Part shown: positions 29,863 through 44,988 of the stretch, piece by piece
How positions within the stretch are numbered: the first letter of the stretch is position 1
Layout: each line of letters opens with the position of its first letter
Notes under the pieces: model-generated
The model's input: the letters and a program-made list of their open reading frames with translations, nothing else
Databases searched by the model: none
What the model was told of the DNA's origin: nothing
Program-made: the position numbers and the translations under genes
Origin: Escherichia coli
Lineage (GTDB): Bacteria; Pseudomonadota; Gammaproteobacteria; Enterobacterales; Enterobacteriaceae
NCBI RefSeq assembly: GCF_003790525.1
Contig: NZ_CP033635.1
DNA: 64,000 nucleotides
Strand: one strand, 5' to 3'

Positions 29863-30140
29863 ATGATTCAAAGGGATATTGAATACTCGGGACAATTTTC
29901 AAAGGATGTAAAACTTGCACAAAAGCGTCATAAGGATATGAATAAATTGAAATATCTTATGACGCTCTTATCAATAATACTTTACTGCTTCCAGCTGTTT
30001 ATAAAGACCACCCGCTGCAAGGTTCATGGAAAGGTTATCGCGATGCTCATGTCGAACCGGACTGGATCCTGATTTACAAACTTACCGATAAACTTTTACG
30101 ATTTGAGAGAACTGGAACTCACGCGGCGCTATTTGGGTAA
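29863..30140 (+). pseudogene. yafQ: yafQ toxin gene disrupted by a frameshift (apparent 1-nt deletion near codon 36-37)
   Basis: N-terminal frame encodes MIQRDIEYSGQFSKDVKLAQKRHKDMNKLKYLMTLL then diverges and stops at 30072; another frame from about 29970 encodes INNTLLLPAVYKDHPLQGSWKGYRDAHVEPDWILIYKLTDKLLRFERTGTHAALFG and stops at 30140. Confidence 0.8.
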
Positions 30141-32707: not shown

Positions 32708-35152
32708 ATGATGATTTTGAGTATTCTCGCTACGGTTGTCCTGCTCGGCGCGTTGTTCTATCACCGCGTGAGCTTATTTATCAGCAGTCTGATTTTGCTC
32801 GCCTGGACAGCCGCCCTCGGCGTCGCTGGTCTGTGGTCGGTGTGGGTACTGGTGCCTCTGGCCATTATCCTCGTGCCGTTTAACTTTGCGCCTATGCGTA
32901 GGTCGATGATTTCCGCGCCGGTATTTCGCGGTTTCCGTAAGGTGATGCCGCCGATGTCGCGCACGGAGAAAGAAGCGATTGATGCGGGCACCACCTGGTG
33001 GGAGGGCGACTTGTTCCAGGGCAAGCCGGACTGGAAAAAGCTGCATAACTATCCGCAGCCGCGCCTGACCGCTGAAGAGCAAGCGTTTCTCGACGGTCCG
33101 GTAGAAGAAGCCTGCCGGATGGCGAATGATTTCCAGATTACCCATGAGCTGGCGGATTTGCCGCCGGAGCTGTGGGCGTATCTTAAAGATCATCGTTTCT
33201 TCGCGATGATCATCAAAAAAGAGTACGGCGGGCTGGAGTTCTCGGCCTATGCCCAGTCTCGCGTGCTGCAAAAACTCTCCGGCGTGAGCGGGATCCTGGC
33301 GATTACCGTCGGCGTGCCAAACTCATTAGGCCCGGGTGAGCTACTGCAACATTACGGCACTGACGAGCAGAAAGATCACTATCTGCCGCGTCTGGCGCGT
33401 GGTCAGGAGATCCCTTGCTTTGCACTGACCAGCCCCGAAGCGGGTTCCGATGCGGGCGCGATTCCGGATACCGGGATTGTTTGCATGGGCGAGTGGCAGG
33501 GCCAGCAGGTGCTGGGGATGCGACTGACCTGGAACAAACGCTACATTACGCTCGCACCGATTGCGACCGTGCTTGGTCTGGCGTTTAAACTCTCCGACCC
33601 GGAAAAACTGCTGGGTGGCGCAGAAGATTTAGGTATTACCTGTGCGCTGATCCCGACCACCACGCCGGGCGTGGAAATTGGTCGTCGCCACTTCCCGCTG
33701 AACGTACCGTTCCAGAACGGACCGACGCGCGGTAAAGATGTCTTCGTACCGATCGATTACATCATCGGCGGACCAAAAATGGCCGGGCAAGGCTGGCGGA
33801 TGCTAGTGGAGTGCCTCTCGGTAGGACGCGGTATCACCCTGCCTTCCAACTCAACCGGCGGCGTGAAATCGGTAGCGCTGGCAACGGGTGCGTATGCGCA
33901 CATCCGCCGTCAGTTCAAAATCTCTATTGGTAAGATGGAAGGGATTGAAGAGCCGCTGGCGCGTATTGCCGGAAACGCTTATGTAATGGATGCTGCGGCA
34001 TCGCTGATTACCTACGGCATTATGCTCGGTGAAAAACCTGCCGTGCTGTCGGCTATCGTTAAGTATCACTGTACCCACCGTGGGCAGCAGTCGATTATTG
34101 ATGCGATGGATATCACTGGTGGCAAAGGCATTATGCTCGGGCAAAGCAACTTCCTGGCCCGTGCTTACCAGGGCGCACCGATTGCCATCACCGTTGAAGG
34201 GGCTAACATTCTGACCCGCAGCATGATGATCTTCGGACAAGGAGCGATTCGTTGCCATCCGTACGTGCTGGAAGAGATGGAAGCGGCGAAGAACAATGAC
34301 GTAAATGCGTTCGATAAACTGCTGTTCAAACATATCGGTCACGTCGGTAGCAACAAAGTTCGCAGCTTCTGGCTGGGCCTGACGCGCGGTTTAACCAGCA
34401 GCACGCCAACCGGCGATGCCACTAAACGCTACTATCAGCACCTGAACCGCCTGAGCGCCAACCTCGCCCTGCTTTCTGATGTCTCGATGGCGGTGCTGGG
34501 CGGCAGCCTGAAACGTCGCGAGCGCATCTCGGCACGTCTGGGGGATATTTTAAGCCAGCTTTACCTCGCCTCTGCCGTTCTGAAGCGTTATGACGACGAA
34601 GGCCGTAATGAAGCCGACCTGCCGCTGGTGCACTGGGGCGTACAGGATGCGCTGTATCAGGCAGAGCAGGCGATGGACGATTTACTGCAAAACTTCCCGA
34701 ACCGCGTGGTTGCCGGGCTGCTGAATGTGGTGATCTTCCCGACCGGACGTCATTATCTGGCACCGTCTGACAAGCTGGATCATAAGGTGGCGAAGATTTT
34801 ACAAGTGCCGAACGCCACCCGTTCACGTATTGGTCGCGGTCAGTACCTGACCCCGAGCGAGCATAACCCGGTTGGTTTACTGGAAGAGGCGCTGGTGGAT
34901 GTGATTGCCGCCGACCCAATTCATCAGCGGATCTGTAAAGAGCTGGGTAAAAACCTGCCGTTTACCCGTCTGGATGAACTGGCGCATAACGCGCTGGCGA
35001 AGGGGCTGATTGATAAAGATGAAGCAGCTATTCTTGTGAAAGCTGAAGAAAGCCGTCTGCGCAGTATTAATGTTGATGACTTTGATCCGGAAGAGCTTGC
35101 GACGAAGCCGGTAAAGTTGCCGGAGAAAGTGCGAAAAGTTGAAGCCGCGTAA
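32708..35152 (+). CDS. fadE: Acyl-CoA dehydrogenase FadE (ATG at 32708)
   Basis: N-terminal TM helices plus acyl-CoA dehydrogenase domains; matches FadE as recalled. Confidence 0.95.
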
Positions 35153-35161
35153 TTGAATAAC

Positions 35162-35185
35162 GGAGCCGAAAGGCTCCGTTTCTTT
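35162..35185. terminator. Rho-independent terminator between convergent fadE and ivy
   Basis: ggagccgaaaggctcc hairpin followed by a T-tract. Confidence 0.6.
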
Positions 35186-35194
35186 ATCCGCTAA

Positions 35195-35668
35195 TTATTT
35201 AAAATTAAAGCCATCCGGATGGTTTTCCAGGCTGCCGGTCAACGCCGCGAACAGCACCGTTTTACCATCAATAGAAAGCGCATCGTTCACATTCAACCAG
35301 GTGAGTTTCTCTTGCGACGTTTTCTCATCAATGGTCGAGAACAGCCCCGTCATCTGATTAGATTTCTCGGACCACATCACAGCGATACGTTGCGAGCCAC
35401 AGTCATGCGGTTTGCACGCGCTCATCACCTGATACGTCTCATCTCCCAACGTTACGGTTTGTGCAGGGGTATAAGTACCGCCTTTCATCACCCAGGCAGG
35501 CAGCTTATGCCCTTGCACCATCTGATTAAACGCCGCTTTGGTGGTTTCGCCCTTTGCAAGGCTGCTAATGGTTAAATCATCCTGCGCCATTGCACTGGTG
35601 GCGATGACCAGAGCGGCGACTGTCGTTATTGCCTTAAACATCATTCCTCCCGAGCTTATCCTGCCCAT
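35195..35668 (-). CDS. ivy: Inhibitor of vertebrate lysozyme Ivy
   Basis: 157 aa; signal peptide; CKPHDCG loop motif. Confidence 0.93.
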   Translation of the reverse strand: MGRISSGGMMFKAITTVAALVIATSAMAQDDLTISSLAKGETTKAAFNQMVQGHKLPAWVMKGGTYTPAQTVTLGDETYQVMSACKPHDCGSQRIAVMWSEKSNQMTGLFSTIDEKTSQEKLTWLNVNDALSIDGKTVLFAALTGSLENHPDGFNFK

Positions 35669-35821
35669 GTTATTAACCTCCTAAAGCCTGGCGATAACAC
35701 GATAATTTGCAAATCAGATATTTCCAATATCAGCATTTGTTATCAATTTATTCTGCGCTAAGGCAACTGCCTGATAAGGTGTTAGAGTTATAAAACCCTT
35801 CGCATAAAGGAGTTGTACACC

Positions 35822-36592
35822 GTGCCTGGTTTGAAGATTACGCTTTTGCAGCAACCACTGGTGTGGATGGATGGCCCTGCCAACCTGCGTCATTTTGATC
35901 GTCAACTGGAAGGTATTACCGGACGCGATGTGATCGTTCTACCGGAGATGTTTACCAGCGGCTTTGCCATGGAAGCGGCAGCTGCGTCGCTAGCACAAGA
36001 TGACGTAGTGAACTGGATGACAGCCAAAGCGCAGCAGTGCAATGCGCTGATTGCAGGCAGTGTTGCATTACAAACGGAGTCTGGTTCGGTTAACCGCTTT
36101 TTGCTGGTTGAGCCGGGCGGCACGGTACATTTTTATGATAAGCGTCATCTGTTCCGAATGGCAGATGAGCATCTGCATTATAAAGCGGGCAATGCGCGAG
36201 TAATTGTGGAATGGCGCGGCTGGCGTATTTTGCCGCTGGTGTGCTACGACTTACGTTTTCCTGTGTGGTCGCGCAATCTCAACGATTATGACCTCGCCCT
36301 GTACGTCGCCAACTGGCCTGCTCCGCGCTCTCTGCACTGGCAGGCATTGCTGACAGCCCGCGCGATTGAGAATCAGGCGTATGTGGCGGGATGCAATCGC
36401 GTCGGCAGCGATGGCAACGGCTGCCATTATCGCGGTGACAGCAGAGTGATTAATCCACAGGGCGAGATTATCGCCACCGCCGACGCGCATCAGGCAACGC
36501 GCATTGATGCGGAGCTGTCGATGGTGGCGTTGCGGGAATATAGAGAAAAGTTTCCGGCATGGCGGGATGCGGATGAATTCACATTTCGTTAG
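35822..36592 (+). CDS. yafV: Nitrilase-superfamily omega-amidase YafV (GTG start at 35822)
   Basis: CN-hydrolase family with catalytic Cys in LVCYDLRFP. Confidence 0.9.
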   Translation: MPGLKITLLQQPLVWMDGPANLRHFDRQLEGITGRDVIVLPEMFTSGFAMEAAAASLAQDDVVNWMTAKAQQCNALIAGSVALQTESGSVNRFLLVEPGGTVHFYDKRHLFRMADEHLHYKAGNARVIVEWRGWRILPLVCYDLRFPVWSRNLNDYDLALYVANWPAPRSLHWQALLTARAIENQAYVAGCNRVGSDGNGCHYRGDSRVINPQGEIIATADAHQATRIDAELSMVALREYREKFPAWRDADEFTFR

Positions 36593-36647
36593 AGGGTGAA
36601 TATGGCTACGAGATAAGTTTCGTGGCTATTTTTCTCTGGAACTTAAA

Positions 36648-36682
36648 CGACGAAAGCCCGAATCAGTAATGATTCGGGCTTT
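36648..36682 (-). terminator. Terminator hairpin downstream of aspV
   Basis: gaaagcccgaatcagtaatgattcgggctttc inverted repeat. Confidence 0.55.
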
Positions 36683-36690
36683 CTGAATAT

Positions 36691-36767
36691 TGGCGGAACG
36701 GACGGGACTCGAACCCGCGACCCCCTGCGTGACAGGCAGGTATTCTAACCGACTGAACTACCGCTCC
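36691..36767 (-). tRNA. aspV: tRNA-Asp (GUC)
   Basis: Reverse complement matches the 77-nt tRNA-Asp including anticodon loop and CCA end. Confidence 0.97.
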
Positions 36768-36899
36768 GCGTTGTGTTCCGTTGGGAACGAGGCGAATATT
36801 ACGGATTGCCTCACCCTTCGTCAACGGTTTTTCTCATCTTTTGAATCGTTTGCTGCAAAAATCGCCCAAGTCGCTATTTTTAGCGCCTTTTACAGGTAT

Positions 36900-37631
36900 T
36901 TATGCCCGCCAGAGGCAGCTTCCGCCTTTCTTCTGCACCAGATCGAGACGGGCTTCATGTGCCGCAAGCTCTTCATCTGTCGCAAAAACAACGCGTAACT
37001 TACTTGCCTGACGCACAATGCGCTGAATTGTTGCTTCACCTTGTTGCTGTTGTGTCTCTCCTTCCATCGCAAAAGCCATCGACGTTTGACCACCGGTCAT
37101 CGCCAGATAAACTTCCGCAAGGATCTGGGCATCGAGTAATGCCCCGTGCAGCGTTCGTTTACTGTTATCTATTTCGTAGCGGGCACATAACGCATCGAGG
37201 CTGTTGCGCTTACCGGGAAACATTTTCCTCGCCACCGCAAGGCTATCGGTGACCTTACAGAAGGTATTGGTCTTCGGAATATCGCGCTTAAGCAACGAAA
37301 ACTCGTAGTCCATAAAGCCGATATCGAACGCTGCGTTATGGATCACGAGCTCCGCGCCGCGGATATAGTCCATGAACTCATCGGCAACCTCGGCAAACGT
37401 GGGCTTATCGAGCAAAAACTCATCGGCAATACCATGTACGCCAAAGGCTTCCGGATCCACCAGCCGATCGGGTTTGAGATAAACATGGAAGTTATTGCCC
37501 GTCAGGCGACGGTTCACCACTTCAACGGCACCAATCTCAATGATCTTGTGGCCTTCATAGTGCGCACCAATCTGATTCATACCGGTAGTTTCGGTATCGA
37601 GAACGATCTGGCGTGTAATTGCAGTGCTCAT
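36900..37631 (-). CDS. dnaQ: DNA polymerase III epsilon subunit (3'-5' proofreading exonuclease) DnaQ
   Basis: 243 aa from ATG at 37631; DEDDh exonuclease motifs. Confidence 0.96.
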
Positions 37632-37695
37632 AGCGGTCATTTATGTCAGACTTGTCGTTTTACAGTTCGATTCAATTACAGGAAGTCTACCAGAG

Positions 37696-38163
37696 ATGCT
37701 TAAACAGGTAGAAATTTTCACCGACGGTTCGTGTCTGGGTAATCCAGGACCGGGGGGATACGGTGCTATTTTACGCTATCGCGGACGCGAGAAAACCTTT
37801 AGCGCAGGCTACACCCGCACCACCAACAACCGTATGGAGTTGATGGCCGCTATTGTCGCGCTGGAGGCGTTAAAAGAACATTGCGAAGTTATTTTGAGTA
37901 CCGACAGCCAGTATGTCCGCCAGGGTATCACCCAGTGGATCCATAACTGGAAAAAACGTGGCTGGAAAACAGCAGACAAAAAACCAGTAAAAAATGTCGA
38001 TCTCTGGCAACGTCTTGATGCTGCGCTGGGGCAGCATCAAATCAAATGGGAATGGGTTAAAGGCCATGCCGGTCATCCAGAAAACGAACGTTGCGATGAA
38101 CTGGCTCGTGCCGCAGCGATGAATCCCACACTGGAAGATACGGGCTATCAAGTCGAAGTTTAA
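37696..38163 (+). CDS. rnhA: Ribonuclease HI
   Basis: 155 aa from ATG at 37696; matches RnhA as recalled. Confidence 0.96.
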
Positions 38164-44911: not shown

Positions 44912-44988
44912 TGGCGGAACGGACGGGACTCGAACCCGCGACCCCCTGCGTGACAGGCAGGTATTCTAACCGACTGAACTACCGCTCC
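44912..44988 (-). tRNA. aspU: tRNA-Asp (GUC), distal tRNA of the rRNA operon
   Basis: Identical to the aspV sequence in this window. Confidence 0.97.

What the first reader, a model, noticed from the sequence alone, without database searches (positions are those of the whole stretch)
36593..36767. No islet at aspV: yafV lies about 100 bp from the tRNA
From memory of the K-12 map, about 2.3 kb of small genes (yafT, ykfM, yafU, yafF) sit between aspV and yafV. Here the tRNA is followed almost immediately by yafV. tRNA-Asp is a common integration target, so this strain appears to carry the empty site.
Basis: established knowledge. Interest (0 to 1): 0.3.

Follow-up and report, generated by a model that had tools for sequence, protein, structure and literature searches.

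The report
Unoccupied aspV island site, ancestral form
This E. coli strain (SMS-3-5-like) still has the original, uninterrupted 98-base gap between the tRNA gene aspV and yafV, where most E. coli carry a type VI secretion island or its remains; it is a correct but ordinary and already documented kind of strain difference.

Summary
tRNA-Asp (aspV) lies at 36691-36767 (-). yafV ends at 36592 (+). The gap is 98 bp, against 2411 bp in K-12, which holds yafT, ykfM, yafU' and yafF'.

The window is E. coli SMS-3-5, with 10 mismatches in 64 kb.

The 98 bp consist of two convergent hairpins. The aspV-proximal one is conserved, with compensatory changes, across about ten Enterobacteriaceae genera. These genera also show the compact yafV-aspV-dnaQ layout, so the arrangement is ancestral and not a deletion scar.

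K-12's islet is not a small insertion. It is the two ends of a ~33-kb island (yafT, T6SS, VgrG, Rhs, ISAs1), seen intact in ECC-1470 and UTI89, with the middle deleted. No occupied genome examined keeps the yafV-side part of the spacer, so deletion cannot regenerate the window's sequence.

aspV is a real attachment site. In strain PapRG-06-5 a 45-kb integrase-bearing island is flanked by the repeat CGTCCGTTCCGCCA[C/A]TATTC. The window has this core once (36685-36704).

Of 5426 complete E. coli genomes, 756 (14%) share the full empty spacer. They include IAI39 and the ST131 strain JJ1887.

The result is ordinary and already known.

The parts
35822..36592 (+). yafV (2-oxoglutaramate amidase), intact, 256 aa. 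Its C-terminal tail is ...DADEFTFR*, the variant seen in the empty-site E. coli genomes examined.
   Evidence: ORF list. SMS-3-5 annotation. The tail is FTFR* in the window, IAI39 and JJ1887, and FRL[W/R]* in the five occupied E. coli genomes examined, including K-12, UTI89, ECC-1470 and XJ5.2.
36602..36639 (+). Probable yafV intrinsic terminator: a 12-bp hairpin (36602-36629) followed by TTTTCTCTGG.
   Evidence: Terminator scan. The RNA fold of 36593-36645 gives -18.6 kcal/mol, z = -4.8. A different hairpin sits at the same place in each other genus. Function is inferred, not measured.
36652..36683 (-). aspV-proximal hairpin (14-bp perfect stem, 4-nt loop), the probable aspV terminator or 3'-processing structure. 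It is the conserved ancestral element of the spacer.
   Evidence: Inverted repeat I2. Fold energy -23.7 kcal/mol, z = -7.0. Across 17 sequences, 95.8% of cells are paired and 6 pairs change on both sides, with 0 of 500 shuffles reaching this. Its U-tract is weak (GUCGUUUAAGUU), so terminator function is inferred.
36685..36704 (-). Single, unduplicated copy of the att core CGTCCGTTCCGCCAATATTC: the last 14 nt of aspV plus 6 nt downstream.
   Evidence: The same 14 nt, plus 5 of the next 6, flank the 45-kb integrase island of PapRG-06-5 as a direct repeat. In the window the core occurs only in aspV, and its first 14 nt also in aspU.
36691..36767 (-). aspV, tRNA-Asp(GTC), intact.
   Evidence: ARAGORN. 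Rfam RF00005, 67.7 bits. Identical to K-12 aspV.
36796..36824 (-). Promoter-like site upstream of aspV (TTGACG, 17 nt, TAATAT).
   Evidence: Consensus scan only. Not evidence of function.
36900..37631 (-). dnaQ, the conserved flank on the other side of aspV.
   Evidence: SMS-3-5 annotation mapped to the window. tblastn synteny in 16 other loci.

Best explanation
The interval 36593-36767 is the ancestral, never-disrupted form of the aspV-yafV junction. It holds an intact tRNA-Asp gene whose 3' end is an unused attachment site. This is followed by a 98-bp spacer made of two convergent hairpins, one ending the aspV transcript and one ending yafV. Most E. coli instead carry a T6SS/Rhs island here, or later replacements and deletion remnants of it such as K-12's yafT-ykfM-yafU'-yafF'. 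Shown: the coordinates, the synteny in other genera, the hairpin covariation, the absence of scars, the island architecture in other strains, and the direct repeat around an integrase island. Inferred: that the hairpins act as terminators, and that this lineage inherited the empty allele without ever carrying the island.
For: (1) The gap is 98 bp against 2411 bp in K-12. (2) The window equals SMS-3-5, with 10 mismatches in 64 kb. (3) yafV, a spacer of ~75-125 bp, aspV and dnaQ lie in that order in 10 loci, including Leclercia, Pseudocitrobacter, Pseudescherichia, Kluyvera, Siccibacter, Entomohabitans and a divergent Escherichia. The whole spacer is about 88% identical to that of the divergent Escherichia locus L004, matching the ~90% identity of yafV. 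(4) The aspV-proximal hairpin is conserved with compensatory changes. (5) There is no IS, no island end and no second copy of the tRNA 3' end. (6) The intact island is yafT...T6SS...VgrG...Rhs/PAAR...ISAs1 in ECC-1470 and UTI89. K-12 holds only its two ends. (7) Every occupied E. coli examined has an ISAs1-derived sequence next to yafV, with no match there to the yafV-side part of the ancestral spacer. These are K-12, ECC-1470, XJ5.2, UTI89, CFT073 and the 1.2-kb scar of MB46. E. albertii is the same. Deletion therefore cannot recreate the window's sequence. (8) PapRG-06-5 shows integrase-mediated use of aspV: the direct repeat CGTCCGTTCCGCCA[C/A]TATTC flanks the island, and the ancestral hairpin is displaced to the far end. 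(9) 756 of 5426 complete genomes share the full spacer.
Against: The history of this particular lineage was not reconstructed on a phylogeny. E. albertii carries the occupied-type junction, so the island is old within Escherichia. An ancestor of phylogroup F could have carried it and later regained the empty allele by homologous recombination. The aspV hairpin lacks a strong U-tract, so its role as a terminator is not established. The megablast census misses diverged variants, so its counts are lower bounds.
Confidence: 0.9

Rival explanations
1. Secondary loss. The lineage once carried the island and lost it by deletion or excision, so the 98 bp are a scar.
For: Deletion remnants of several sizes do exist at this site: 2.4 kb in K-12, an 11-kb degraded T6SS in XJ5.2, and 1.2 kb of IS1 plus an ISAs1 fragment in MB46.
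Against: All such remnants keep ISAs1-derived sequence next to yafV and lack the ancestral spacer there. The window's spacer is orthologous to that of a divergent Escherichia lineage, and its hairpin to that of many genera. The yafT/T6SS island has no integrase and no flanking repeat that could support precise excision.
Confidence: 0.03
2. Allelic replacement. An island-bearing ancestor regained the empty allele by homologous recombination of the yafV-dnaQ flanks with DNA from an empty-site donor. The site is then ancestral in sequence but not in descent.
For: The empty state occurs in unrelated backgrounds: SMS-3-5 and IAI39, and ST131 within B2, whose relatives UTI89 and CFT073 are occupied. 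Phylogroup assignments are from general knowledge. The spacer is 97 of 98 identical between the ST131 strain JJ1887 and the window, although the yafV bodies differ by about 4%. E. albertii has the occupied junction.
Against: No recombination breakpoints were mapped. yafV identities do not cluster clearly by occupancy. Vertical retention with repeated island gain explains the same pattern.
Confidence: 0.2
3. Assembly artefact. A repeat-rich island collapsed or was dropped during assembly.
For: Rhs and ISAs1 repeats in the island are difficult to assemble.
Against: The identical junction is present in 756 independently finished complete genomes, and equivalent junctions occur in other genera.
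Confidence: 0.01

Closest known systems
aspV-associated islands of E. coli: OI-7/T6SS of EDL933, PAI I of LF82, T6SS/1 (GI1) of ECC-1470, PAI-CFT073-aspV
   Same: Same chromosomal site, between aspV and yafV. The literature describes aspV as a hot spot (PMC5363993, PMC2941450, PMC2808357, PMC5422975, PMC7545054). The LF82 paper already tabulates strains with 0 (E2348/69) or 3 (MG1655) of the 29 PAI I genes.
   Different: The window carries none of these islands. It shows the pre-insertion sequence that they replaced.
K-12 yafT-ykfM-yafU'-yafF' islet
   Same: It occupies the same interval, and its tRNA and outer flanks are 98% identical to the window's.
   Different: It is 2417 bp of island ends (38% G+C against 51% locally), truncated between yafU and an ISAs1 transposase gene. 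It has no integrase and no tRNA repeat. It lacks the window's 98-bp spacer.
CP4/P4-type integrase islands inserted in tRNA 3' ends, here the 45-kb aspV island of PapRG-06-5
   Same: It uses the aspV 3' end that is intact and single-copy in the window. The ancestral hairpin follows its attR repeat.
   Different: The window has only the unrecombined site, with no integrase and no repeat.
Salmonella SPI-6 and SPI-20 at aspV
   Same: T6SS islands next to the orthologous tRNA gene. [quoted passage not shown]
   Different: A different genus and different islands. No Salmonella sequence was examined here.

Membership tests
Unoccupied (virgin) tRNA-gene attachment site / empty island hot spot | Intact tRNA gene | tested here: met
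   ARAGORN and Rfam. Identical to K-12 aspV.
Unoccupied (virgin) tRNA-gene attachment site / empty island hot spot | Only one copy of the att core, with no partial tRNA repeat nearby | tested here: met
   Searches allowing mismatches find only aspV and the separate aspU gene.
Unoccupied (virgin) tRNA-gene attachment site / empty island hot spot | The same core flanks an integrase-bearing element as a direct repeat in another genome | tested here: met
   PapRG-06-5 has 14 exact nt plus 5 of the next 6, next to a tyrosine integrase at the attR end.
Unoccupied (virgin) tRNA-gene attachment site / empty island hot spot | The sequence downstream of the tRNA is the ancestral one, shared with outgroups | tested here: met
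   The hairpin is conserved in 16 other loci, with covariation. The full spacer is orthologous in Escherichia locus L004.
Unoccupied (virgin) tRNA-gene attachment site / empty island hot spot | The site is competent for integration | not testable with these tools
   Needs an integration assay with an aspV-specific integrase.
Degraded island / deletion scar (K-12, XJ5.2, MB46 type) | Island-end or IS-derived sequence between aspV and yafV | tested here: not met
   The 98 bp have no match to the K-12 islet. Rfam finds only the tRNA in 35000-38000. Scars elsewhere retain ISAs1 or IS1.
Rho-independent terminators (the two hairpins) | G+C-rich stem followed directly by a U-tract | tested here: inconclusive
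   The yafV-side hairpin meets the scan criteria. The aspV-side hairpin is very stable and conserved but is followed by GUCGUUUAAGUU, a weak U-tract.
Rho-independent terminators (the two hairpins) | Transcript 3' ends map at the hairpins | not testable with these tools
   Needs Term-seq or 3' RACE.

The most novel reading that the evidence does not exclude
The empty and occupied states may be two old haplotypes that have coexisted in Escherichia since before the E. coli / E. albertii split. E. albertii has the same ISAs1-Rhs-VgrG junction at yafV as E. coli, while a divergent Escherichia lineage and about 14% of E. coli keep the intact ancestral spacer. Each state carries its own yafV C-terminal tail (FTFR against FRL[W/R/L]). 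The dimorphism would be maintained by recombination and selection for or against carrying this T6SS.
Probability: 0.3. Interest if true: 0.3.

Novelty: already known. Interest (0 to 1): 0.12.

Why it matters
It matters little beyond strain description. It records that this SMS-3-5-like strain lacks the aspV T6SS/Rhs island. It also preserves the pre-insertion sequence, which is a useful reference for defining island boundaries and the aspV att core (36685-36704). The site could serve as a clean landing site for integration assays. The comparison also corrects a common view: K-12's yafT-yafF genes are the two ends of a large deleted T6SS island, not a small islet.

Tried and rejected
(1) I looked for direct repeats of the aspV 3' end in the window, the K-12 islet, the full ECC-1470 and UTI89 islands, XJ5.2 and the sampled parts of the CFT073 island. 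None was found, so the yafT/T6SS island cannot be shown to be integrase-borne.

(2) I first read the 86 'hairpin-only' hits as partial spacers. They are genomes in which the hairpin loop is flipped (GTAA against TTAC), so BLAST matched only the palindrome on the opposite strand. All four sampled have an ImpA-type T6SS after the hairpin.

(3) I suspected that the 82 genomes that are 'contiguous' but lack the spacer hold a diverged empty spacer like L004. A search with the L004 spacer found nothing. The one example examined, MB46, is a 1.2-kb IS1 plus ISAs1 scar.

(4) I considered that the last four yafV codons in K-12 are IS-derived. I rejected this as unproven. The length is unchanged, and the F-x-[L/F]-x pattern is shared with other genera, so divergence of a homologous tail is equally likely.

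(5) An Rfam search of 35000-38000 at permissive threshold found nothing in the spacer apart from the tRNA.

(6) A junction-based census of the ISAs1-yafV boundary found only 2438 genomes. Megablast needs a 28-nt exact word, so this is a lower bound and was not used as a total.

(7) A literature search for 'aspV' with 'ST131' returned nothing on the empty site.

Full report
**Observation.** ARAGORN places tRNA-Asp(GTC) at 36691-36767 on the minus strand, and Rfam confirms it at 67.7 bits. The yafV reading frame ends at 36592 on the plus strand. Next come dnaQ (36900-37631, minus) and rnhA. The interval between yafV and aspV is 98 bp. In K-12 MG1655 the same interval is 2411 bp and is annotated with yafT, ykfM, the yafU pseudogene and the yafF pseudogene, an ISAs1-family transposase fragment. 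The window is E. coli SMS-3-5, or a near-identical strain, with 10 mismatches over all 64,000 bases.

**Exact relation to K-12.** blastn shows 98% identity from rnhA through aspV up to window 36684, seven bases past the CCA. Identity resumes at 36579, thirteen bases inside yafV. The 104 bases in between have no counterpart in K-12, and K-12's 2417 bases have none in the window. The last four yafV codons differ: FTFR* here and FRLW* in K-12. The length is unchanged, and the F-x-[L/F]-x pattern recurs in other genera. The two states are thus alternative sequences, not 'site' against 'site plus insert'.

**What the 98 bp are.** They fold into two hairpins.
- One lies at 36602-36629 and is followed by TTTTCTCTGG on the yafV strand. 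The segment 36593-36645 folds at -18.6 kcal/mol, z = -4.8.
- The other is a perfect 14-bp stem at 36652-36683, directly after aspV on the tRNA strand (-23.7 kcal/mol, z = -7.0).

I read them as convergent terminators. This is inferred. The aspV hairpin has only a weak U-tract.

**Ancestral or scar?** A scan of one genome per species for YafV relatives returned 80 loci. In ten of them tRNA-Asp lies about 75-125 bp after the yafV stop. Among them are Leclercia, Pseudocitrobacter, Pseudescherichia, Kluyvera, Siccibacter, Entomohabitans and a divergent Escherichia (L004). Three Citrobacter loci have about 690 bp. dnaQ follows the tRNA in all of them.
- The aspV-proximal hairpin is conserved in 16 other loci. 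95.8% of cells are paired and six pairs change on both sides. None of 500 shuffles reaches these values, and shifted registers collapse to 19-50% pairing.
- The yafV-side hairpin differs in sequence in each genus but is always present.
- The whole spacer is about 88% identical to that of L004, in line with the 90% identity of yafV.

The compact arrangement is therefore ancestral for the family, and the window's spacer is orthologous sequence, not a deletion junction.

**What fills the site elsewhere.**
- In ECC-1470 the interval holds about 33 kb: yafT, ykfM, a full-length yafU homologue, Hcp, a complete T6SS, VgrG, an Rhs gene, and two ISAs1 pseudogenes next to yafV.
- UTI89 has a diverged version of the same island.
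- K-12 keeps only the two ends. Most genomes match K-12's first 2088 bp and then continue into the T6SS.
- E. albertii has homologous ISAs1, Rhs and VgrG sequence next to yafV, and the same junction sequence.
- CFT073 has a different 100-kb island at the tRNA side but still has the ISAs1 fragment at yafV.
- XJ5.2 retains the ancestral hairpin with its loop flipped. It then has an 11-kb degraded ImpA-type T6SS, IS1 and IS256, and again the ISAs1-type junction.
- MB46 is reduced to 1.2 kb of IS1 plus an ISAs1 fragment.

The yafT/T6SS island in ECC-1470 and UTI89 and its K-12 remnant have no integrase and no repeat of the tRNA 3' end. No occupied genome examined keeps the yafV-proximal part of the ancestral spacer. 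Deletion of an island therefore cannot produce the window's sequence.

**Is aspV an attachment site?** Yes. In E. coli PapRG-06-5 a 45-kb CP4-like island lies between the intact aspV and a tyrosine integrase gene. The island carries CbtA/YeeU, an antirestriction gene, fimbrial genes and an autotransporter. Immediately beyond the integrase gene comes CGTCCGTTCCGCCAATATTC, followed by the ancestral hairpin. The two ends share 14 exact bases plus 5 of the next 6. The window has this core once, at 36685-36704. K-12's island sequence starts exactly after ...CCACTATTCA, at the end of the same core. UTI89 and CFT073 also carry an 'integrating conjugative element protein' gene beside the ISAs1 fragment. 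Both facts are compatible with an old site-specific insertion whose far end was later lost. This is a suggestion, not a demonstration.

**Census of 5426 complete E. coli genomes.**
- 756 (13.9%) have the full spacer at 98% identity or more. They include IAI39 and the ST131 strain JJ1887.
- 838 have yafV and aspV-dnaQ within 1.4 kb of each other. The excess includes IS scars such as MB46.
- About 86-89 have only the hairpin. All four sampled have an ImpA-type T6SS after it.
- 2862 have the K-12-type aspV-yafT intergenic sequence.
- 288 have the CFT073-type left end.

Megablast needs 28-nt exact words, so these counts are lower bounds and do not sum to the total.

**Comparison with the literature.** aspV is listed among the most frequently targeted tRNA genes in E. 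coli (PMC7545054). T6SS islands at aspV are described for EDL933 (PMC5363993), LF82 and most ExPEC (PMC2941450), EAEC 042 (PMC2808357) and ECC-1470 (PMC5422975). SPI-6 and SPI-20 sit at aspV in Salmonella (PMC2907695). The LF82 paper already tabulates strains with none (E2348/69) or three (MG1655) of the island's genes. An unoccupied aspV site is thus a known kind of strain variation in a published genome.

**Verdict.** The added details are these:
- The site is of ancestral type.
- K-12's islet is the remnant of a large T6SS/Rhs island.
- The att core can be placed at 36685-36704.

It remains open whether this lineage never had the island or regained the empty allele by recombination. Interest is low, and the novelty class is 'already known'.

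Noticed in passing
window 1-27856: An apparently intact Flag-2 lateral flagellar cluster (flgK ... fliE-J ... fliM-R, flhB, flhA) is present. K-12-type genomes keep only a truncated flhA (lfhA) and lafU. This strain therefore lacks the aspV island but keeps another variable region about 9 kb away.
   Followed up: partly
window 29863-30140: yafQ, the toxin of the dinJ-yafQ pair, is annotated as frameshifted in SMS-3-5, while dinJ is intact.
   Followed up: no
window 36666-36669; L084 48592-48668 region; L094 3501-3532: The 4-nt loop of the aspV hairpin is inverted between genomes. On the tRNA strand it reads TTAC in the window and in Escherichia locus L004, and GTAA in XJ5.2, PapRG-06-5 and Enterobacter ENT03. 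This loop flip in a perfect palindrome made BLAST match the hairpin on the opposite strand.
   Followed up: partly
window 36578-36592 (yafV tail): The last four YafV residues co-vary with site occupancy. They are FTFR in the empty-site E. coli (window, IAI39, JJ1887), FRLW or FRLR in occupied E. coli, FRLL in E. albertii (occupied) and FKLH in the empty divergent Escherichia. The rest of yafV does not cluster by occupancy.
   Followed up: partly
window 44912-44988 (aspU): aspU, downstream of rrnH, is identical to aspV over all 77 nt but is followed by a different terminator hairpin (GAAGCCTCGAG...CTCGAGG plus a T-run). No aspU-side island or repeat was seen in this window.
   Followed up: no
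L095 (E. coli PapRG-06-5, NZ_CP048605.1 2088000-2137000): A 45-kb CP4-like island in aspV has its integrase at the end far from the intact tRNA. It is flanked by CGTCCGTTCCGCCA[C/A]TATTC and sits in tandem with an ImpA-type T6SS island. The aspV-proximal end is the same sequence as that of PAI-CFT073-aspV.
   Followed up: partly
L087 35160-35648 (UTI89) and L092 26154-26354 (CFT073): A gene annotated as an 'integrating conjugative element protein' (PFL_4695 family in CFT073) sits next to the ISAs1 fragments beside yafV. It may be a relic of the element that first brought DNA into this site.
   Followed up: no
L001 1516-3932 (K-12 islet): The K-12 remnant is 38% G+C, against 51% for the surrounding window region and 52% for the full ECC-1470 island. 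The retained ends are the AT-rich parts of the island.
   Followed up: no
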